Shown piece after piece: positions 5,834-24,447 of a stretch of DNA of 24,447 nucleotides. The stretch covers positions 1 to 24,447 of the forward strand of contig JAMONW010000155.1 of the NCBI GenBank assembly GCA_027066355.1, given 5' to 3'. The stretch comes from Campylobacteraceae bacterium (lineage in GTDB: Bacteria; Campylobacterota; Campylobacteria; Campylobacterales; Sulfurovaceae). Numbering within the stretch: the first letter of the stretch is position 1; the number at the start of each line of letters is the position of its first letter. The translations under genes and the position numbers were made by a program. Under the pieces are notes generated by a model. It saw nothing but the letters and a program-made list of their open reading frames with translations. It was not told where the DNA came from and made no database searches.

Positions 5834-7035
5834 TGTCGCCTAAAATAGATAATGCAAGAAAGATACTTTTGGGATTATATATATTTAGTATCCCTATTTC
5901 TGCTGCAATTAATAATATTCTATTTGGTTTTGTAATTCTATTTTGGATAATTTGGGGTGATAAAAAAGAGACACTTAAACTACTTAAAAATCCTTTAGTA
6001 GTTGCATTTTATACGCTTTTTGCAATATTTACTATAAGTATGCTTTGGAGTGATGATTTAAAGCAGGGATTGCTTATGCTAAAAAAGGAGATGTTTTATT
6101 TAGTTTTGCCAATTTTTATGAGTTTGGTAAAAAAAGAGGAGATAGATTTTTATCTAAAAAGTTTTTTAGCTGCAATGTTTATATCAGAACTCTCTTCATA
6201 TTTAATTTTCTTTAAAATTGTGCCTCCATTTTTACATGCAACACAATATGACCCAGTGCCATTTATGGGAGCAACAGGGCATATATCTTATAATCCAATG
6301 TTAGTTCTTTCTATATTTTTGCTTCTATATTTTTTCTTTAGAAAAGATAATAGCAGTTTATGGTTTAAGATAATATCAGCTATATTTATTTTAACAATGA
6401 CTATCAATTTATTTATAACAGGTGGAAGAGCTGGGCAAGTTGCGTTTTTCTTTGTTGCAATAGTTGCATTTATGCAGTTTTTTAAAGCCAATTTTAAAAC
6501 ATTTTTTATATCAATATTTGCAATAATAGCAATATTTTTTATAGCTTACAATAGTAGCACAATTTTTCATAATAGAGTTAATTTAGCAATACATGATGTT
6601 AAAACATTTAAACAAAATCCAAATACAAGTGTAGGTATGCGTCTTGCTAATTGGGAAAACTCTTTAAGACTTATAAAAAAACACCCTCTAACTGGTGCTG
6701 GTATTGGAGATTATAAAAAGGATTTAACTTACTATTTTAAAAAATATACGCCAAAGGCAGCTATATTACCTCAACCTCATAATATGTATCTTTTTGCTTG
6801 GGTTCATAGTGGTTTATTTGCACTTTTAGCACTACTATCTATTTTTGCTATAGAATTTAAAGGATATAGAGTTTTAAATGATGAATATAAGCCAATTAGA
6901 CTTATTTTACCAACTCTATTTTTAATAATTATGTTTAGTGAGTCTTATCTATCTGTGCATTTTACCAAAATATTATTTTTGATTTTTAGTGCTTTTTTAT
7001 TTAAAGAGTTAAATTTTAAAAAGCTAAAGGGTTAA
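5833..7035 (+). CDS. waaL: O-antigen ligase family (Wzy_C/WaaL) membrane protein
   Basis: About 10-12 hydrophobic segments; TGGRAG motif; large loop with SVGMRL-W, GAGIGD and PHNMY; GTG start overlaps the waaF TAG by 1 nt. Confidence 0.75.
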   Translation: MSPKIDNARKILLGLYIFSIPISAAINNILFGFVILFWIIWGDKKETLKLLKNPLVVAFYTLFAIFTISMLWSDDLKQGLLMLKKEMFYLVLPIFMSLVKKEEIDFYLKSFLAAMFISELSSYLIFFKIVPPFLHATQYDPVPFMGATGHISYNPMLVLSIFLLLYFFFRKDNSSLWFKIISAIFILTMTINLFITGGRAGQVAFFFVAIVAFMQFFKANFKTFFISIFAIIAIFFIAYNSSTIFHNRVNLAIHDVKTFKQNPNTSVGMRLANWENSLRLIKKHPLTGAGIGDYKKDLTYYFKKYTPKAAILPQPHNMYLFAWVHSGLFALLALLSIFAIEFKGYRVLNDEYKPIRLILPTLFLIIMFSESYLSVHFTKILFLIFSAFLFKELNFKKLKG

Positions 7036-7038
7036 TAT

Positions 7039-7779
7039 TTGAACTATTGTGAATATGATTCAAACTATAAAGAGTTAGCTCTAAATATTGAAAATTTTTT
7101 TAGCAACTCTAAAAACTTACTATTTCAGGGTAGAAATAGCATTAAAATAGTAGAGTTTAATAGAAAAAAAGTTGCTATAAAATATTTTAAAATTCCAAAT
7201 TTTATAAATAAAATTGCTTATAGATTTTTTAGAGATTCAAAGGCAAAACGCTCATATAAAAATGCTAAAAAATTAATATATTTAGGTATAAATACACCAA
7301 AGCCTATTGCTTATGTAGAAAAACCAAAAGCTCTTTTTTTTGATAAAAGTTACTATATTTGTGAATTTTTTGATTACGATTTTGAGATAAGAGATGTTTT
7401 AAAAAGCTCTAATTTTAAAGATAGAGAAACTATTTTAAAAGAGTTTGTTAAATTTAGCTATAATTTACACAATTTAGGTGTTTATCATATAGATTACTCT
7501 CCAGGAAATGTTTTGATAAAAAGAGATAATAACTCTTATATCTTCTCAATTGTAGATGTAAATAGAATGAAATTTATAGATTTTAGCAATAGTTTACGTT
7601 TTAAAAATTTATCAAGATTCTCTACTTCAATAGAAGATTTAGAGTTTATAGCCAAAGAGTATGCAAAAATTTCTAGCATAGATGAGAATTTTGCTATTTT
7701 AGAGCTTAGAAAATATCACAATAAACATCAAGATTATCTTAAGAGAAAACAACTATTAAGAAAGTTAAAGGGTAAATAG
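7039..7779 (+). CDS. Lipopolysaccharide/Kdo kinase family (WaaP/KdkA/InaA-like) protein
   Basis: Kinase motifs VAIKYF (catalytic Lys), HIDYSPGNVL (HxDxxxxN) and VDVNR (DFG-equivalent); TTG start. Confidence 0.82.
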   Translation: MNYCEYDSNYKELALNIENFFSNSKNLLFQGRNSIKIVEFNRKKVAIKYFKIPNFINKIAYRFFRDSKAKRSYKNAKKLIYLGINTPKPIAYVEKPKALFFDKSYYICEFFDYDFEIRDVLKSSNFKDRETILKEFVKFSYNLHNLGVYHIDYSPGNVLIKRDNNSYIFSIVDVNRMKFIDFSNSLRFKNLSRFSTSIEDLEFIAKEYAKISSIDENFAILELRKYHNKHQDYLKRKQLLRKLKGK

Positions 7780-8825: not shown

Positions 8826-10701
8826 AAAACTATTTAACTACTATCTTTTGATGATAGTAATATTTTTTATAGGAAGATTAGCCCTATTTATTTGGCAATT
8901 TAGCAGATTAAAAAATAGTGATAGCTCTATTTGGTTAACATTTATTTATGGCTTAAAGATGGATACAATGCTAAGTGCTATGCTACTTGTAATACCCCTT
9001 TTAGTGCTAACACTTGCTCCAAGCAATTTAAAAAAAATTGCAAATAGCTTTTTAAAGTTATATTTTGTAGCTATAATTTCACTAATTATCTATATTGAGT
9101 TTGCTACTTTTCCTTTTTTTGCACAATATGATGTAAGACCAAATTATAAATTTGTAGAGTATTTAGCATACCCAAAAGAGGTAATTGGTATGATTTTGGC
9201 TGATTATAAACTACCTCTATTTTTAGCTATTAGTGCAATTGTAATATTTATAATACTCTATTTAAAAAAGTTTTCAAATAGCTTTATAGAGATATTAAAT
9301 ACTCCATTAAAAAAGAGAGTTATTTGGTTTTTGCCAATAGCTTTAATTTTATTTATTGCGATTAGGTCATCGTTTGGACATAGACCAGCAAATATTTCTG
9401 ATGCTATGTATTCAAATAATAGAATATTAAATGAAGTTACTAAAAACTCTCTATACTCAATTGGATATGCAATATATTCAAATAAAAATTCATCAGCTAA
9501 AGTTGCAAAACTTTATGGAAAAATGAATCCAAAAGAGGCTTTGGAGAGAGTTAAAAAGAGATTAAAAATTGAAGGTAGTGAATTTAATAGCACTTCACCA
9601 TTTAGTCGCTTAGAGAAGAGTCATTTCAAAACTAATAAAAAGAGGAATTTAGTAATTTTTCTACAAGAGAGTTTGGGCTATCAATTTATCTCTCCTAAAA
9701 TTACACCAAATTTAATAAAACTACAAAAAGAGGGTATCTGGTTTAATAACACTTATTCTAATGGAACACGCTCAGTTAGAGGAATTGCTGGGGTAACTTC
9801 TGGCTTTTTAGCAGTGCCTGGAAAGGGCGTGGTTAAGAGAAATAAATCTCAAAGTGGTTTTTTTACTTTTGCATCACTTTTAAAACCACTTGGTTATCAT
9901 AGTATGTTTATTTATGGAGGAGAGGCAAGGTTTGATAATATGCGCTCTTGGTTTTTAGGCAATGGTTTTGATGAAATAATAGAGCAAAAAGATTATAAAA
10001 ATCCACACTTTGTTGCAAATTGGGGTGTTAGCGATGAGGATTTAGTTAAAATGGCAAATAGAAAATTTAATAAATTATATAGTAGTGGTAAACCATTTGC
10101 AGCACTTATGTTTAGTTCATCTAATCATAGTCCATTTGATATACCAAATGATAAAGTAAAACCAATAATTCCAAATAAAAATTGTGTAGAAAATGCTGTG
10201 CATTATGCAGATTTTGCTATTGGCAAATTTTTTGAATTGGCAAAAAAATCACCTTATTATAAAGATACTATCTTTGTAGTAGTTGCAGATCATAATGTGC
10301 GTGTTTATGGAGATGATGTTGTGCCTGTTAATATGTTTCATATTCCAGCATTAATTATTGCTGATGGTATAGATAGCAAAATCTATAAAAAAGCTACCTC
10401 TCAACCTGATATATTAGCTACTGCCTTGGATTTATTGGGCAAAGATTTTAAATACCCTATTCTTGGAAAGTCGATATTTTCAGATAAAAAAGCAGATATT
10501 AATTTATTACAATTTAACCAAAATTATGCTCTTAAAGTAAAAGAGAAAGTAGCAGTAATTGTGCCAAAACAAGAGCCACAAACATATATTTATAAAAATA
10601 AGCATCTTATTAAAACAAAACATGACAAAGAGCTAGAAAAAGATGCATTGGCATTTATAACAACACTTAATTATCTATATGATAAACAGAAATTTAAGTA
10701 A
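8812..10701 (+). CDS. LTA synthase (LtaS/MdoB) family membrane-bound phosphotransferase, alkaline phosphatase/sulfatase fold
   Basis: About 5 N-terminal TM helices; metal and catalytic motifs FLQES, SNGTRSVRG, WGVSDE, NHSPF, YAD and VADH; overlaps the upstream gene by 14 nt. Confidence 0.85.
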   Translation: MKIIKKLFNYYLLMIVIFFIGRLALFIWQFSRLKNSDSSIWLTFIYGLKMDTMLSAMLLVIPLLVLTLAPSNLKKIANSFLKLYFVAIISLIIYIEFATFPFFAQYDVRPNYKFVEYLAYPKEVIGMILADYKLPLFLAISAIVIFIILYLKKFSNSFIEILNTPLKKRVIWFLPIALILFIAIRSSFGHRPANISDAMYSNNRILNEVTKNSLYSIGYAIYSNKNSSAKVAKLYGKMNPKEALERVKKRLKIEGSEFNSTSPFSRLEKSHFKTNKKRNLVIFLQESLGYQFISPKITPNLIKLQKEGIWFNNTYSNGTRSVRGIAGVTSGFLAVPGKGVVKRNKSQSGFFTFASLLKPLGYHSMFIYGGEARFDNMRSWFLGNGFDEIIEQKDYKNPHFVANWGVSDEDLVKMANRKFNKLYSSGKPFAALMFSSSNHSPFDIPNDKVKPIIPNKNCVENAVHYADFAIGKFFELAKKSPYYKDTIFVVVADHNVRVYGDDVVPVNMFHIPALIIADGIDSKIYKKATSQPDILATALDLLGKDFKYPILGKSIFSDKKADINLLQFNQNYALKVKEKVAVIVPKQEPQTYIYKNKHLIKTKHDKELEKDALAFITTLNYLYDKQKFK

Positions 10702-10712
10702 TTTATATAAAA

Positions 10713-10746
10713 ATTTAAGCTTTTAAAAAACTCTAAAAGCTTAAAT
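10713..10746 (-). terminator. Probable intrinsic (possibly bidirectional) terminator between the convergent LPS operon and gmhA
   Basis: Perfect 13-bp inverted repeat ATTTAAGCTTTTA-N8-TAAAAGCTTAAAT, followed by a T-run on the minus strand; includes the gmhA stop codon. Confidence 0.6.
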
Positions 10747-11296
10747 CTACTTCATTGCACAATGTATGTCCTATAAGAATGTGCATCTCTTGAATTCTTG
10801 GGGTATTGTTTGATGGAACAACAAGGTTTAAATCACAAAGTTTATTCATCTCTCCACCACTATTTCCACTTAAACCAAGAGTAGTTAACCCATGCTCTTT
10901 TGCCTTTTGAAGAGCTAAAATTACATTTTTTGAGTTTCCAGATGTTGATATACCAATTGCTAAATCACCCTCTTTTCCAAGTGCTTCTATTTGTCTTGCA
11001 AATACTATTTCATATCCAAAATCATTTGAAATTGCAGTAATAGCAGAAGTATCGGTTGTTAAAGCAATTGCTGCTAAGCCTATTCTATTTGTTTTGTAGC
11101 GTCCTGTCAGTTCAGCAGCAATATGCTGGGCATCTGCTGCACTACCTCCATTACCAAAAATTAAGACTTTATTGCCTTGTTTTAAGGTATTTATTAAAAT
11201 TTGTGAAGCCTCTTCTATCTGTTTTGGCATCTGCTTAATTGTTGCCTCTATTGTAGCTTTATGTTCATTTAACTCTTCTAAAATTTTATTTTGCAT
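10733..11296 (-). CDS. gmhA: D-sedoheptulose 7-phosphate isomerase
   Basis: [40 protein letters not shown] and RIQEMHIL motifs. Confidence 0.96.
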
Positions 11297-11297
11297 A

Positions 11298-12707
11298 TTA
11301 TACCTTAGACTCTATTTTTTTAATAATATTTGAAGTGCTTTTACCCTCTACAAAATCAATTAATTTAACCTCTTTTGCTATATCACTTCCTACAACCTCT
11401 TTATCCTTATAGTCAGCACCTTTAACTAAAATATCTGGTTTAATTGTTTTAATTAATTCATAAGGAGTATCCTCTTCAAATGGAACTATATAATCTACGC
11501 TAGATAATGCGCTAAGCACAGTAGCTCTATCTATTAATTGATTTACAGGTCTATCTTTTCCTTTTAAACGCTTAATACTCTCATCGCTATTTAAGCCTAA
11601 AATAAGCACATCTCCTAACTCTTTTGCTTTTTGCAAATATGTGGTATGCCCACTATGTAGTATATCAAAACAACCATTTGTAAATACAACTTTTTTACCT
11701 TGAGATTTTAACTCTTTGGATATCTTTTCTATTTCATTAAGATTTTTTAATTTATTTGTTAGAGTGCTGTTTTTAAGAGAGTTTTCATATGCTTCTATCT
11801 CTGCAAAAGTAGCAACTGCGGAACCAACTTTACCAACAACAACTGCTGCTGCTGAGTTGGCAAATTTACAAGCTTGATAAATAGATTTACCATTAGCCAA
11901 AGCTACTGCAATTGCTGAAATTACAGTATCTCCAGCTCCTGTAACATCATAAACCTCTTTAGCCACTGTTGGTATTATTTGCAAACTCTCATCTAAAAGA
12001 GCTATTCCCTCTTCACTAAGTGTAATTAGAGGATATTTTAGCTCTAAAGTATCTTTAAAATATTTTAAGGCAACTTTTAAGTTATCTTTTGTATCTAAAT
12101 TTATATTAGTTGCAATTTGCGCCTCTTTTTTATTTGGAGTAATTAGTGTAGCACCCTTATATTTACTAAAATCACTACCTTTTGGGTCAATTAATATTAA
12201 TTTATTGCTATTTTTCGATAAGCTAATAAGCTCTTTTGCAAGATTTTTAGTTATAACACCTTTAGCATAATCAGATACTATAATGGCATCAAAATTATCT
12301 ATTTTATCTCTTAATATATCTAATAAAGCATCAGAGGAGTTATCTGATATAGGCTTGGTAGTCTCTTCATCTAGGCGTAATACTTGATGTGTAGATACCA
12401 TTATTCTACTCTTTTTTGTAGTAACTCTATTTGGCTCTACTAGGAGGTTACTCTCTATATTTTGCAATAAAGATTTTAACTCTTTAGCATTGATATCATC
12501 TCCAATTACGCTAAATAAAGATACATTAACATTTAATGCTAAAAGATTATTTACAACATTTCCAGCTCCTCCAAGAGTTGATGTGCTTTTTTGCTTTAAT
12601 ACTACTTGAACTGGAGCTTCGGGGGATATTCTATCACAACTTCCCCATATGTAGCTATCTATCATTAAATCACCAATAACTGCTATATTTAAACTTCTAC
12701 TACTCAT
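11298..12707 (-). CDS. hldE: Bifunctional heptose 7-phosphate kinase / heptose 1-phosphate adenylyltransferase
   Basis: PfkB-type [23 protein letters not shown]; C-terminal [28 protein letters not shown] and LVKGADY. Confidence 0.96.
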
Positions 12708-12733
12708 TATTAAGCCTTAAGTGATTTTTTAAA

Positions 12734-12742
12734 ATTGTAGCA
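12734..12742 (-). promoter_or_regulatory. Putative extended -10 promoter for hldE-gmhA
   Basis: TGcTACAAT on the minus strand, about 27 nt upstream of the ATG; TAAGG SD near the start. Confidence 0.55.
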
Positions 12743-12769
12743 AAAAAAACTTCATATGAAGATATTAAT

Positions 12770-21870: not shown

Positions 21871-21877
21871 ATCTATT
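21861..21877. terminator. Hairpin at the junction of the convergent TRIC pseudogene and CAP gene
   Basis: AATAGAT-TAA-ATCTATT followed by TACTTTTTT on the plus strand. Confidence 0.3.
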
Positions 21878-22485
21878 TACTTTTTTGCTCTTGCACCTGC
21901 TAGTAGAAGAGTCCAGTAAGCTTTGTTATCTTTATTGCTAATTACTTTAGCTAGTGCTACATCTGTATATCTACTATCCATTATAACTTTGCAGTCATTT
22001 GGGTTTTTAAGCCAGTAGCCTATTAACTCTCTTGGACCTTTTAGGGTATTTGTGGTAGTTCTAATAATAAGTTCACCACTTAATATCTTTTTTGAATTTA
22101 CCTTTTGGTTAACTCTTTCATAAAAGTAACTACCTCTATTTAATTTTAAATTTTGAGCTGTAATATCTGTTTTGGTTCCAGAACCCATATGCGATAGCTT
22201 ATTATTTACTGCCATATCTATTGAATGCTCTTTTGCATGGTAGTATAAGCCTTTATTCCATCTTAAAGGATTTGTTGCACGAGAGCAAATTTGGTTTAAG
22301 CTTCTTGCTTCATTAATTGCTTTTAGGGTTGCTTGTGAAATTGTTAATTTTTTAAGATGCTCTGTTTTTGCATATGTTTGAGTTACGCTTTGAGCTTTTT
22401 GGAACTGGTCATTAATTTTATTAATTGGCTCTGTGGCAAAAAGCGAAAGTGGCAATATTAAATATAAAAAAAATTTATAATCCAT
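21877..22485 (-). CDS. CAP (SCP/PR-1) domain secreted protein, paralog of 15161-15781
   Basis: Sec-type signal peptide ending LFA; INEAR, AKEHSIDMA, LSHMGS, GELI and WLKNPNDCKVIMD. Confidence 0.85.
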   Translation of the reverse strand: MDYKFFLYLILPLSLFATEPINKINDQFQKAQSVTQTYAKTEHLKKLTISQATLKAINEARSLNQICSRATNPLRWNKGLYYHAKEHSIDMAVNNKLSHMGSGTKTDITAQNLKLNRGSYFYERVNQKVNSKKILSGELIIRTTTNTLKGPRELIGYWLKNPNDCKVIMDSRYTDVALAKVISNKDNKAYWTLLLAGARAKK

Positions 22486-22759: not shown

Positions 22760-23404
22760 ATGTTTTTAAAGAGATTTACTTTAATAGTTATGGCTATATC
22801 TTTATTTATTTCAATATCAAATGCAAAAGAGTATAAAGTAAAAATTACAGAAAATTTACCTTATGTTGATGTTGATGTTCTTGGAAAACCTGTTAGAATA
22901 GATAGAATTCAAGATACCAAACATAAACTGAAAAACTCTTATGTTAAAACATCAAGACCTTGCCCACCTTTTTGCGTTCAACCATTTGAGCCAATAAAAG
23001 GCATTGAAACTTATGGAGAGCTAGAGTTATTAAATTTTTTAAAAAATGAAGTTAGCAATAATAGTGGTGTATTAGTTGATGCAAGACTTCCTAAATGGTA
23101 TAAAGAAGGAACAATTCCAGGTGCAATAAATTTACCATTTTCTATACTTAATCCTAAAACTTCAAAAGATTATCTTGAGCAAGTATTACCAATTTTGGGT
23201 GCTAAAAAAGATGGAGATAAGTGGGATTTTAAAGATGCACAAAAGCTAGTTATTTTTGATAATGGCCCATGGTGCCAACAAGGTGTTAGAGCTATGGAGC
23301 ATCTCTTAGAGATTGGTTATCCAAAAGATAAAATAAAGTATTATCGCGGTGGTATGCAGTATTGGGAAATACTTGGGTTTAAAGTATTAAATAATAAAAA
23401 TTAG
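22760..23404 (+). CDS. Periplasmic rhodanese-like domain protein with Asp in the active-site loop
   Basis: Signal peptide ending SNA; LVDARLPKWY, GTIPGAINLP, YYRGGMQYW rhodanese motifs; loop reads IFDNGPWCQQG; N-terminal CPPFC. Confidence 0.85.
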   Translation: MFLKRFTLIVMAISLFISISNAKEYKVKITENLPYVDVDVLGKPVRIDRIQDTKHKLKNSYVKTSRPCPPFCVQPFEPIKGIETYGELELLNFLKNEVSNNSGVLVDARLPKWYKEGTIPGAINLPFSILNPKTSKDYLEQVLPILGAKKDGDKWDFKDAQKLVIFDNGPWCQQGVRAMEHLLEIGYPKDKIKYYRGGMQYWEILGFKVLNNKN

Positions 23405-23413
23405 GATGTTCTA

Positions 23414-24447
23414 ATGCAAAGACTCTTTTTAGCACTTATTTTACCACTATTTTTATTTGCAATGAGTGATAAAGAGTTAGCTACTGCTATTAATCTTGCT
23501 GGAAAACAGAGAATGCTAACGCAAAAAATGAGTAAAGATGCTTTAATGATATTTAAAGGAGTAGATGTTAAAAATAGTCAAAAAGAGTTAAAAGAGTCAT
23601 ATACTCTATTTGATAAAACACTAAAAGGTTTGTTAAATGGGGATAAAAGTTTAAACCTAGTGCCATCAAATAATAAAAAAATAGAAGACAAACTAAAAGA
23701 AGTAGAGAAACTATGGAAACCTTTTTTAGTAAAAATTAAAGAGGTAGAGAGCTTCAAAAATTTAACAGATAAAACTTTTGAGTATATTGACAAAAATAAT
23801 TTACCTCTTCTTAAAAAGATGAATGAGGCGGTTACTTTATATACAAAGCTAGGAGATAGCAAAACAAGCAAACTTAAAATGGCAAATGATATTAATTTAG
23901 CAGGAAAACTTAGAATGCTAACTCAAAGAGTAGCTAAAGATGTTTTACTCTACCAATTAGATTTAAACCCAAAAGAGGCTTTAAAAGATTTAGACTCTTC
24001 TGTAGAGCTATTTGATAAAATTTTAAATGGCTTATATAATGGAGATAAAGAACTTAAATTAGAGGGAACGAAACTACCTAAAATTATAAAACAGTTAAAT
24101 ATTGCAAAAGAGAGTTGGCAGAAGACAAAACCACTAATAGCAGAAGCTATAAAAGATAAAAATAACTTAAAATTAACAGATGAACTTATTAGAAAATTAG
24201 ATAAAGTAAAATATGAAGTAAATATAGCAGTTGGATTGTATGAGAAGTCTTTAAATAGACAAAAACAGGTTTTAAAACTAAATGCTTTAATAGATGGTTT
24301 TATGACTAAAAAGAGTAATTCAAAACATTTAATCAATTTAGCAGGTAAACAGAGAATGCTAACTCAAAGAGTTTCTAAATTGGCAATTGAGTGTGGCTTC
24401 TCATTAAGAGCCAATAGTTGCGAAATGATGGAAAAATATATGAATCT
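23414..24447 (+). CDS. Secreted protein with at least three tandem PilJ/NarX-type four-helix sensor domains (partial, runs off the right edge)
   Basis: Not in ORF track. ATG 23414 with SD AGGA overlapping the upstream stop; open for 344 codons: MQRLFLALILPLFLFA-MSDKELATAINLAGKQRMLTQKMSK...INLAGKLRMLTQRVAK...INLAGKQRMLTQRVSK. P-box-like motifs start at 23489, 23891 and 24332. Confidence 0.88.
   Translation, partial: MQRLFLALILPLFLFAMSDKELATAINLAGKQRMLTQKMSKDALMIFKGVDVKNSQKELKESYTLFDKTLKGLLNGDKSLNLVPSNNKKIEDKLKEVEKLWKPFLVKIKEVESFKNLTDKTFEYIDKNNLPLLKKMNEAVTLYTKLGDSKTSKLKMANDINLAGKLRMLTQRVAKDVLLYQLDLNPKEALKDLDSSVELFDKILNGLYNGDKELKLEGTKLPKIIKQLNIAKESWQKTKPLIAEAIKDKNNLKLTDELIRKLDKVKYEVNIAVGLYEKSLNRQKQVLKLNALIDGFMTKKSNSKHLINLAGKQRMLTQRVSKLAIECGFSLRANSCEMMEKYMN

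What the first reader, a model, noticed from the sequence alone, without database searches (positions are those of the whole stretch)
22760..24447. Candidate periplasmic anion-sensing module: secreted rhodanese-fold protein coupled to a tandem NarX/PilJ-domain protein with no visible signalling output
Seen: two exported proteins 9 nt apart (SD overlaps the stop), apparently one operon. The second repeats INLAGK(Q/L)RMLTQ three times at 134- and 147-aa spacing. After the N-terminal signal, which ends in a peptidase-I-like LFA, there is no hydrophobic segment in the 344 visible residues. Established: this motif matches the P-box of NarX/NarQ and the PilJ-type domain of the nitrate chemoreceptor McpN, where the Arg binds nitrate at a homodimer interface in membrane-bound receptors. 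Inference: tandem copies could form intramolecular pseudo-dimer sites in a soluble periplasmic anion-binding or relay protein (nitrate, nitrite or a sulfur oxyanion), partnered with a rhodanese-fold protein. This would link N and S sensing in the periplasm and is the best candidate here for an undescribed system.
Basis: partly seen in the sequence, partly recalled or inferred. Interest (0 to 1): 0.72.

Follow-up and report, generated by a model that had tools for sequence, protein, structure and literature searches.

The report
Secreted four-module nitrate-sensor-like protein, no output
A vent bacterium exports a protein made of four nitrate-sensor-type modules with no signalling part, encoded with two rhodanese-like proteins and cell-wall-binding proteins, which suggests an undescribed way of detecting or handling nitrate-like anions in the periplasm.

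Summary
The window is a whole contig. Contig C63 of the same genome overlaps its end by 171 bases and completes the gene. The full protein has 560 residues: a signal peptide, then four PilJ/NarX-type four-helix bundles. It ends at a stop codon with no second membrane helix and no HAMP, MCP or kinase domain.

The operon runs rhodanese (catalytic Cys replaced by Asp), 4xPilJ, a single-pass LysM protein, a rhodanese with the Cys kept, and a TSP3/OmpA protein. It is conserved in 13 species of a Nitratifractor-like genus and, with shuffled gene order, in other Campylobacterales. The rhodanese/LysM set also occurs without the PilJ gene, so the link is frequent but not obligatory.

Shorter 2xPilJ relatives in other phyla often sit directly upstream of a chemoreceptor gene. 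The most likely role is a periplasmic nitrate or oxyanion-binding accessory sensor. Ligand binding is untested. First-stage readers of this scan flagged similar stand-alone proteins on other genomes, and none of those notes has been followed up.

The parts
21877..22485 (-). Divergently transcribed secreted CAP/SCP-family protein (202 aa). Its position beside the operon is conserved within the genus.
   Evidence: PF00188 E 2e-8. Present upstream of the operon in 12 other genomes. An RNA-library contig matches 22202-22373 exactly.
22760..23404 (+). Rhd1: secreted rhodanese-fold protein (214 aa) with a ~95-aa N-terminal extension. Probably catalytically inactive.
   Evidence: PF00581. Signal peptide at residues 1-20. 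Strong SD-like AAGGGGAGA upstream. Orthologues found.
22961..22975 (+). CPPFC motif (residues 68-72) in the N-terminal extension of Rhd1.
   Evidence: Cys pair kept in 14/18 Rhd1 and 16/16 Rhd2 orthologues. It is the family consensus KTSRxCPPFCIQP. No solved structure matches this extension.
23258..23275 (+). Rhd1 active-site loop D-NGPW-C: Asp167 at the canonical catalytic Cys position and Cys172 at +5.
   Evidence: Asp in 17/18 Rhd1 orthologues. Rhd2 has Cys at this position in 16/16 (FC-x-G-x-W-C).
23403..23413 (+). Gene junction: AGGA overlapping the TAG stop of Rhd1, with a 9-nt spacer before the ATG of the 4xPilJ gene.
   Evidence: Sequence read directly. An RNA-library contig spans 23304-23585 across this junction.
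23414..24447 (+). First 344 codons of the 560-aa secreted 4xPilJ protein. The gene continues on contig C63 (L005 3429 down to 2611, minus strand).
   Evidence: No TM helix or output domain.
23414..23464 (+). Signal peptide of the 4xPilJ protein (about 17 residues, ending LFA|MS).
   Evidence: Hydrophobic segment of only about 12 residues, too short for a membrane anchor. Low-confidence helix 2-14 in the model. FAMSDKELA is conserved in the family.
23489..23524 (+). N-box 1 (residues 26-37, INLAGKQRMLTQ), on the first helix of bundle D1.
   Evidence: Exact fit to the published N-box (PMC6381276). G30, R33, M34, L35 and Q37 are invariant in 40 sequences.
23891..23926 (+). N-box 2 (residues 160-171, INLAGKLRMLTQ), on the first helix of bundle D2. 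It has Leu where the N-box has Gln.
   Evidence: Most family members have Gln here: 94/108 fit the strict N-box in D2. R167 is invariant.
24257..24310 (+). Flexible hinge (residues 282-299) between the D1-D2 unit and the D3-D4 unit.
   Evidence: pLDDT below 50 over residues 282-299 and pTM 0.51 for the whole chain, against pTM 0.90 for D1-D2 folded alone.
24332..24367 (+). N-box 3 (residues 307-318, INLAGKQRMLTQ), on the first helix of bundle D3. It lies inside the 171-base overlap with contig C63.
   Evidence: R314 is invariant.

Best explanation
The finding is the front of a conserved cell-envelope operon of a Nitratifractor-like vent bacterium. The gene order is Rhd1 (secreted rhodanese fold, catalytic Cys replaced by Asp), a 560-aa secreted protein of four N-box PilJ four-helix bundles, a single-pass inner-membrane protein with a C-terminal LysM domain, Rhd2 (secreted rhodanese with the catalytic Cys), a TSP3/OmpA peptidoglycan-binding protein, and a 41-aa membrane peptide.

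Shown by tools: the 4xPilJ protein has no membrane anchor and no output domain. In the models it consists of two rigid units (D1-D2 and D3-D4) joined by a hinge.

Inferred: each unit is an intramolecular pseudo-dimer like the NIT domain of NasR. The N-box helices of its two bundles would sit where NIT's pocket helices 1 and 5 lie, so that their two arginines can hold one small oxyanion. Nitrate is the most likely ligand, and nitrite or sulfite are possible. That gives two sites per chain.

Inferred: because it has no output of its own, the protein most likely works as a diffusible periplasmic binding or accessory sensor protein that reports by contact with partners. Its 2xPilJ relatives are encoded directly upstream of chemoreceptor genes. 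In this operon the candidate partners are the rhodanese pair and the LysM protein. The LysM protein's conserved cytoplasmic tail is the only operon-encoded route across the inner membrane.
For: Architecture:
- The 560-aa protein ends at a stop and has no TM helix or output domain.
- The family clusters tightly at about 560 aa in more than 100 clusters.

Ligand signature:
- D1, D3 and D4 fit the N-box [IVL]-[ND]-x-A-G-x-Q-R-M-L-[ST]-Q, which was defined from nitrate-binding McpN.
- The arginine equivalent to McpN R61 is invariant in all four modules.
- The N-box is kept in every module across 108 homologues.

Fold:
- The D1-D2 unit has pTM 0.90.
- The proposed NIT nitrate pocket uses helices 1 and 5.
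- D1-D2 and D3-D4 are 36% identical, so they are duplicates of one unit.

Accessory-sensor idea: 16 of 66 2xPilJ genes have a chemoreceptor gene directly downstream on the same strand.

Nitrate context:
- The genome has NapA.
- In other Campylobacterales, membrane-bound N-box PilJ proteins flank the nap operon.

Linkage: the operon is conserved in 13 species of the genus and, with shuffled order, in other genera.

LysM protein: its cytoplasmic tail carries a conserved LDDLI / IEEDFI motif.

Expression: an RNA-library contig crosses the Rhd1-PilJ junction.
Against: - No binding data exist.
- The fold does not fix the ligand. The PilJ ligand-binding domain and one NIT domain (PA4520) bound no nitrate, and NarX/NarQ also accept nitrite and sulfite.
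- I could not read model coordinates, so it is not verified that the two N-box arginines face each other.
- The D3-D4 arrangement is inferred from homology only.
- The PilJ gene is not obligatory for the rhodanese/LysM set. G023 and G035 encode them at separate loci, and distant genomes have rhodanese-LysM pairs with no PilJ gene beside them.
- Paralogous 4xPilJ genes in the same genomes lack these partners.
- No chemoreceptor or kinase gene lies in any of the Campylobacterota 4xPilJ loci examined.
- A signalling role for the LysM protein's tail is speculation.
- The RNA contig could come from DNA carry-over.
Confidence: 0.45

Rival explanations
1. Periplasmic nitrate buffer or delivery protein. 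The four N-box modules simply capture scarce nitrate in the periplasm and hold or hand it to the periplasmic nitrate reductase Nap. No signalling role is involved, and the genomic link to the rhodanese/LysM genes reflects co-expression only.
For: The protein is secreted and soluble, has several N-box sites, and has no output domain. NapA is present in the genome and in most relatives. Each genome carries 2-3 paralogues, some beside a PstS-like anion-binding protein, which suits a binding-protein role.
Against: The gene is not next to nap in any locus examined. Its 2xPilJ relatives are tied to chemoreceptor genes rather than to reductases or transporters. NapA presence does not track 4xPilJ presence.
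Confidence: 0.2
2. Sulfur-side function. The PilJ modules bind a sulfur oxyanion or polysulfide (sulfite, thiosulfate) and present it to, or regulate, the Rhd1/Rhd2 sulfurtransferase pair held at the cell wall by the LysM protein.
For: The gene repeatedly lies next to an inactive/active rhodanese pair. NarX and NarQ also accept sulfite. A fused double rhodanese of this family lies beside NrfD/4Fe-4S genes of the polysulfide-reductase type. Two adjacent rhodanese-like genes are induced during sulfur oxidation in Sulfurovum indicum, although their identity with this family was not checked.
Against: The N-box was derived from strictly nitrate-specific McpN, and three modules fit it exactly. The rhodanese/LysM set works without the PilJ gene in several genomes. 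2xPilJ relatives have no rhodanese neighbours.
Confidence: 0.15
3. Structural envelope protein. The chain of four helical bundles is a periplasmic scaffold or tether that works with peptidoglycan-binding proteins (LysM, OmpA). The conserved motif serves bundle packing, not ligand binding.
For: The partners bind peptidoglycan. In other genera the block is flanked by bactofilin and an M23 peptidase, a cell-shape type neighbourhood. Fold searches also hit tandem-bundle scaffolds such as catenin, vinculin and talin.
Confidence: 0.1
4. An ordinary chemoreceptor or NarX-type kinase whose membrane and output parts lie beyond the contig edge.
For: Only that the ORF runs off the window end.
Against: The continuation on C63 ends at a stop after 560 aa and contains only two more PilJ modules. 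An identical 560-aa protein is encoded on three independent contigs. Homologues are uniformly 544-570 aa.
Confidence: 0.01

Closest known systems
McpN ligand-binding domain (P. aeruginosa PA2788; PDB 6GCV) and the N-box class of PilJ domains (PF13675)
   Different: McpN has one module between two TM helices, feeds an MCP signalling domain, and forms its nitrate site between two chains. Here four modules sit in one secreted chain with no TM helix or output domain.
NIT domain of the nitrate-responsive antiterminator NasR (PDB 4AKK)
   Different: Sequence identity is 9%, and no Pfam NIT match was found. NasR is cytoplasmic and fused to an ANTAR RNA-binding output. This protein is periplasmic, has the unit twice and has no output.
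NarX / NarQ periplasmic sensor domains (P-box)
   Different: NarX and NarQ are membrane histidine kinases that dimerise between chains. None of that architecture is present here.
Periplasmic region of the P. aeruginosa PilJ chemoreceptor (PDB 7ZJR, 8WDF)
   Same: Two PilJ modules in tandem, and the best sequence match among solved structures (E 5e-6).
   Different: The mutual arrangement of the two bundles differs (rmsd about 25 A, TM 0.31). Its N-box is not conserved and it binds no nitrate. It is part of a membrane receptor.
Binding-protein-dependent receptors (TorT-TorS, LuxP-LuxQ, MBP-Tar; review PMC8050422)
   Same: The logic is the same: a free periplasmic ligand-binding protein encoded next to a membrane signalling protein. 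This is seen here for the 2xPilJ relatives, which are paired with chemoreceptor genes.
   Different: Known co-sensors are alpha/beta solute-binding proteins. Here the free protein is itself built from receptor-type four-helix bundles. In the window's operon no receptor gene is adjacent.
Two-domain rhodaneses (inactive N-terminal plus active C-terminal domain) and periplasmic single-domain rhodaneses such as PspE
   Same: Rhodanese fold (PF00581; profile matches to the Uba4 rhodanese domain, BH2092, TSTD1 and PspE). It is an inactive (Asp) plus active (Cys) pair, and both proteins are exported.
   Different: The two halves are separate secreted proteins. Each has an unmatched ~95-aa N-terminal extension with CPPxC and a second Cys at +5 in the loop. 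They are tied to a LysM membrane protein.

Membership tests
PilJ / NarX-type sensor domain (Pfam PF13675) | Profile match above the curated cut-off | tested here: met
   152 bits (window part) and 98 bits (C63 part) against a cut-off of 26.6. Five matched stretches in total, covering four modules.
N-box (nitrate-binding) subclass of PilJ domains (Martin-Mora et al. 2019) | Motif [IVL]-[ND]-x-A-G-x-Q-R-M-L-[ST]-Q on the first helix | tested here: met
   D1, D3 and D4 fit exactly. D2 has Leu for Gln in this protein but fits in 94/108 homologues.
N-box (nitrate-binding) subclass of PilJ domains | Four-helix bundle that superposes on the McpN ligand-binding domain | tested here: met
N-box (nitrate-binding) subclass of PilJ domains | Specific binding of nitrate through the N-box arginine | not testable with these tools
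   Needs ITC or thermal shift on purified protein and Arg-to-Ala variants.
NIT-like intramolecular two-bundle nitrate sensor | Two four-helix bundles of one chain packed as in the NasR NIT domain | tested here: met
NIT-like intramolecular two-bundle nitrate sensor | Pfam NIT (PF08376) sequence match | tested here: not met
   Only PF13675 was reported for both parts at E <= 0.01. Identity to NasR is 9%.
NIT-like intramolecular two-bundle nitrate sensor | The two pocket arginines face each other across the bundle interface | tested here: inconclusive
   The N-boxes lie on helices 1 and 5 of the unit, the same helices as the proposed NIT pocket.
Transmembrane chemoreceptor or NarX-type sensor kinase | Second TM helix after the sensor domain, followed by HAMP and MCP-signal or HisKA/HATPase domains | tested here: not met
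   No hydrophobic segment after residue 22, no such Pfam or NCBIfam domain, and a stop after residue 560.
Bimodular PilJ-receptor ligand-binding domain (7ZJR type) | Same mutual arrangement of the two modules | tested here: not met
   rmsd 24-25 A and TM 0.31-0.33 over the full length. AlphaFold DB receptor-type entries behave likewise.
Catalytic rhodanese (sulfurtransferase) | Rhodanese domain match | tested here: met
   PF00581 for Rhd1 (46.6 bits) and Rhd2 (34.6 bits), cut-off 22.2. Profile hits to solved rhodaneses.
Catalytic rhodanese (sulfurtransferase) | Cysteine at the first position of the active-site loop | tested here: not met
   This holds for Rhd1, the gene inside the finding: Asp167, and Asp in 17/18 orthologues. 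Rhd2, downstream on C63, meets the feature with Cys in 16/16.
Binding-protein-plus-receptor pair (co-sensor) | Gene for a membrane signalling protein adjacent to the free binding-protein gene | tested here: not met
   No MCP gene lies in any of the ten Campylobacterota loci with 4xPilJ-type genes that were searched. The feature is met for 16/66 2xPilJ relatives in other phyla.

The most novel reading that the evidence does not exclude
Secreted, output-less proteins built from N-box PilJ bundles (2x and 4x forms) are a widespread, undescribed class of periplasmic nitrate-binding co-sensors: receptor sensor domains set free as diffusible proteins. In vent Campylobacterota, the 4x form would couple nitrate availability to a cell-wall-anchored rhodanese sulfur-transfer module. 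That would be direct cross-talk in the periplasm between the electron acceptor (nitrate) and the electron donor (reduced sulfur).
Probability: 0.2. Interest if true: 0.8.

Novelty: new variant of a known kind. Interest (0 to 1): 0.62.

Why it matters
A 2019 review of respiratory regulation in Campylobacterota (PMC6682613) names only the Crp/Fnr-type Nss regulators for the nitrate response in Wolinella. It mentions no PilJ-type or rhodanese component. These bacteria dominate vents, where nitrate-driven sulfur and hydrogen oxidation is central.

A free periplasmic protein with four predicted nitrate sites would be a new element of that physiology. Sensor bundles released from their receptors, often encoded next to a chemoreceptor, would also add a new kind of accessory binding protein to bacterial signalling. 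NIT-based nitrate biosensors already exist (PMC9581486). If binding is confirmed, a single-chain two-bundle N-box unit might offer another compact scaffold for such sensors.

Tried and rejected
- **Truncated receptor.** I first asked whether the ORF was simply a receptor cut by the contig end. This is rejected.
- **Curated names.** NCBIfam gave no curated family for the PilJ protein, either rhodanese or the 41-aa peptide.
- **Atlas label.** The Atlas auto-name "NO-responding regulator Dnr" is a misannotation. It probably spread from neighbouring Crp/Fnr genes.
- **NapA co-occurrence.** NapA is present in 30/41 relatives, so it does not discriminate.
- **Neighbours of 2xPilJ genes without an MCP.** They include aconitase, sigma-54, an ammonium transporter, a PAS kinase and others, with no pattern.
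- **Unannotated ORFs beside a distant rhodanese-LysM pair.** The 567- and 534-aa ORFs are not PilJ-like (hhalign probability below 1%).
- **Promoter scan.** It found no more sites than chance in this AT-rich DNA.
- **Literature.** Searches for stand-alone PilJ/NarX-like periplasmic proteins, and for a rhodanese-LysM system, found no description.
- **Sulfurovum indicum lead.** The sulfur-induced rhodanese pair could not be matched to this family, because that genome could not be addressed by name.
- **Model coordinates.** They are not exposed, so I could not measure the Arg-Arg distance or test the D3-D4 packing directly.
Full report
**Observation**

- The rhodanese ORF is 22760-23404 (214 aa, PF00581).
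- A PilJ-domain ORF starts at 23414 and runs off the window.
- The spacer is 9 nt, and an AGGA begins inside the TAG stop.
- The three motifs are at residues 26, 160 and 307.
- The only hydrophobic stretch is the N-terminal signal peptide.

**Completing the gene**

The window is an entire contig (C155) of a 63%-complete metagenome-assembled genome.
- Contig C63 of the same genome overlaps the window's last 171 bases with one synonymous mismatch.
- It continues the ORF to a stop codon.
- The completed protein has 560 residues and a fourth motif at residue 442.
- It has four PilJ modules, no second hydrophobic segment, and no HAMP, MCP, kinase or GGDEF domain.
- A 560-aa protein encoded on three independent contigs, one of them 68 kb, is 100% identical to both pieces, which proves the join.
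- The assembly break falls inside the third N-box region, so the internal repeat may have caused it.

**The operon**

On the 68-kb contig the order is as follows.
- Upstream, on the opposite strand, lies a CAP-family gene.
- Rhd1 (214 aa) comes first, then the 4xPilJ gene after 9 nt.
- The LysM protein (354 aa) follows after 10 nt.
- Rhd2 (215 aa) follows with no gap.
- A TSP3/OmpA protein (372 aa) follows after 86 nt.
- A 41-aa hydrophobic peptide follows after 2 nt.
- Downstream is a convergent Band_7 gene.

Every product has a signal peptide or a membrane segment. The only terminator-like hairpin on this strand follows the 41-codon ORF. The window's own copy of the downstream genes lies on C63. 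A metatranscriptome contig (282 nt, 3 mismatches) crosses the Rhd1-PilJ junction. This fits co-transcription, but DNA carry-over cannot be excluded.

**The PilJ protein**

*Sequence.* The McpN study defined an N-box, [IVL]-[ND]-x-A-G-x-Q-R-M-L-[ST]-Q, around the nitrate site. In that site R61 gives the hydrogen bonds, and G58, A59 and M62 make contacts.
- Modules D1, D3 and D4 fit the N-box exactly. D2 has Leu for Gln.
- In 40 aligned homologues, the Gly, Arg and Met of every module are invariant, and the last Gln is invariant in D1, D2 and D3.
- Among 108 homologues the strict N-box is present in 76, 94, 79 and 79 sequences for D1 to D4.

*Models.*
- The full chain has mean pLDDT 87.5 but pTM 0.51, with a disordered hinge at residues 282-299.
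- D1-D2 folded alone gives pLDDT 92 and pTM 0.90.
- D1-D2 and D3-D4 are 36% identical, so the protein is a duplicated two-bundle unit.

*Fold comparison.*
- The two-module PilJ receptor domain aligns only at about 25 A rmsd.
- The proposed NIT nitrate pocket involves arginines on helices 1, 5 and 6, with E175 and R176 on helix 5. Helices 1 and 5 of the unit here carry the two N-boxes.
- Several AlphaFold DB clusters, labelled "NarX-like N-terminal domain-containing protein", share the same arrangement at 2-3 A rmsd.
- I could not read coordinates, so the facing of the two arginines remains an inference.

**The rhodaneses and the LysM protein**
- Rhd1 has Asp at the canonical catalytic position in 17/18 orthologues (FDNGPWC).
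- Rhd2 keeps Cys there in 16/16 (FC-x-G-x-W-C).
- A second Cys at +5 and an N-terminal CPPxC are usually present in both. This confirms an earlier first-reader note.
- The rhodanese domain is genuine. The ~95-aa N-terminal extension has no solved relative.
- The family has about 330 representative clusters at E <= 1e-10.
- The LysM protein has a short cytoplasmic tail with a conserved acidic-hydrophobic motif (LDDLI, or IEEDFI in other genera). This is followed by one TM helix, a variable low-complexity linker and a conserved C-terminal LysM domain. From memory, this layout recalls FtsN/DedD-type proteins.

**Conservation**
- The block Rhd1-PilJ-LysM-Rhd2 occurs in 12 other species of the genus. 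One record is titled "uncultured Nitratifractor sp.". The OmpA gene follows in ten of them.
- Other Campylobacterales show the orders Rhd1-PilJ-Rhd2-LysM, Rhd-LysM-PilJ and Rhd-PilJ-LysM-Rhd. Linkage therefore survives rearrangement.
- The link is not obligatory. G023 has Rhd1-LysM-Rhd2 with its 4xPilJ genes elsewhere, G035 likewise, and distant genomes have rhodanese-LysM pairs alone.
- Paralogous 4xPilJ genes in the same genomes stand beside unrelated genes or a PstS-like binding protein.
- In four other genera the block is flanked by bactofilin and an M23 peptidase.

**The wider class**

Secreted 2xPilJ proteins of about 290 aa, with no output domain, occur in Gamma- and Alphaproteobacteria, Desulfobacterota, Planctomycetota and other groups. 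In 16 of 66 cases a methyl-accepting chemotaxis protein gene follows directly on the same strand. This is a lower bound, because many contigs end early. It suggests that such proteins act as accessory sensors for membrane receptors. None of the ten Campylobacterota 4xPilJ-type loci that were searched has such a neighbour.

**Nitrate context**
- The genome encodes NapA (1352 bits), so nitrate is reduced in the compartment this protein is exported to.
- NapA is too common among relatives to be informative.
- In three other Campylobacterales families a membrane-bound N-box PilJ protein lies beside the nap operon. In two of them it is paired with a Crp/Fnr regulator. This ties N-box domains to nitrate respiration in this order.
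- A review of respiratory regulation in Campylobacterota mentions only the Crp/Fnr-type NssA for the nitrate response, and no PilJ or rhodanese component.

**Interpretation**

The best-supported reading is a periplasmic anion-binding accessory protein. It would have two NIT-like sites per chain, most likely for nitrate, and would act through contacts with co-encoded envelope proteins.

The rival readings are:
- a nitrate buffer for Nap;
- a sulfur-oxyanion partner of the rhodaneses (NarX/NarQ also accept sulfite);
- a structural scaffold.

Ligand identity is open, because a PilJ ligand-binding domain and a NIT domain have been shown not to bind nitrate.

**Novelty**

I found no paper that describes output-less secreted PilJ-repeat proteins or this operon. 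First-stage readers of this scan noted stand-alone 2x and 4x proteins on other genomes, without follow-up. The building blocks are known, but this architecture and its gene partnership appear undescribed. I class it as a new variant of a known kind.

Noticed in passing
L131 (G032:C1) 11088-12748; L133 (G025:C105) 10100-12099; L132 (G030:C27) 6200-7162: In other Campylobacterales families the nap operon is flanked by a membrane N-box PilJ protein: TM, PilJ, TM, then about 130 aa with no known domain. In two of the three cases it is paired with a Crp/Fnr-family regulator. It could be the unidentified nitrate sensor that feeds Nss-type regulators.
   Followed up: partly
L070, L078, L086, L092, L099 and 11 further loci: Secreted 2xPilJ proteins in Gammaproteobacteria, Desulfobacterota, Planctomycetota and Rhodobacteraceae are directly followed by a chemoreceptor gene whose own periplasmic domain has no Pfam match. 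The pair looks like a split receptor.
   Followed up: partly
L124 4035-7350: A fused double rhodanese of this family (449 aa) overlaps the end of a 657-aa dCache protein that shows no recognised output domain. It lies beside NrfD/4Fe-4S genes, and a 2xPilJ gene sits 5 kb upstream. This is a second pairing of a sensor-domain protein with these rhodaneses.
   Followed up: no
L047, L049, L051, L062 (flanks of the block): In Sulfurovum-like genera the rhodanese/PilJ/LysM block lies between a bactofilin gene and an M23 peptidase with a coiled-coil N-terminus, plus an unannotated 310-330-aa ORF. This is a peptidoglycan or cell-shape type neighbourhood.
   Followed up: partly
L116 6904-8631; L041 1100-1966: PilJ-repeat genes recur next to PstS-like PBP_like_2 proteins. 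In one case the PstS-like domain is fused to an OmpA domain, and in another it stands alone beside a 4xPilJ paralogue. This is a repeated oxyanion-binding theme.
   Followed up: no
window 24277-24447 and L005 3260-3430: The assembly broke inside the third N-box region. The two contig ends share 171 bases with one mismatch, so the internal repeat or strain variation probably split the gene across contigs.
   Followed up: yes
L130 463-3467: A distant rhodanese-LysM pair follows folC. From memory, this is the position held in E. coli by the single-pass division protein DedD. It is a weak hint that the LysM protein is a septal-type peptidoglycan binder.
   Followed up: no
AlphaFold DB hits (A0A812RVR8, A0A813K9Y5, A0A812JFI0, A0A812U4A1): Proteins of 634-976 aa, one of them named GABBR2 protein, contain the same two-bundle unit at TM 0.85-0.88. 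The module therefore also occurs fused into much larger proteins. Their organisms were not shown.
   Followed up: no
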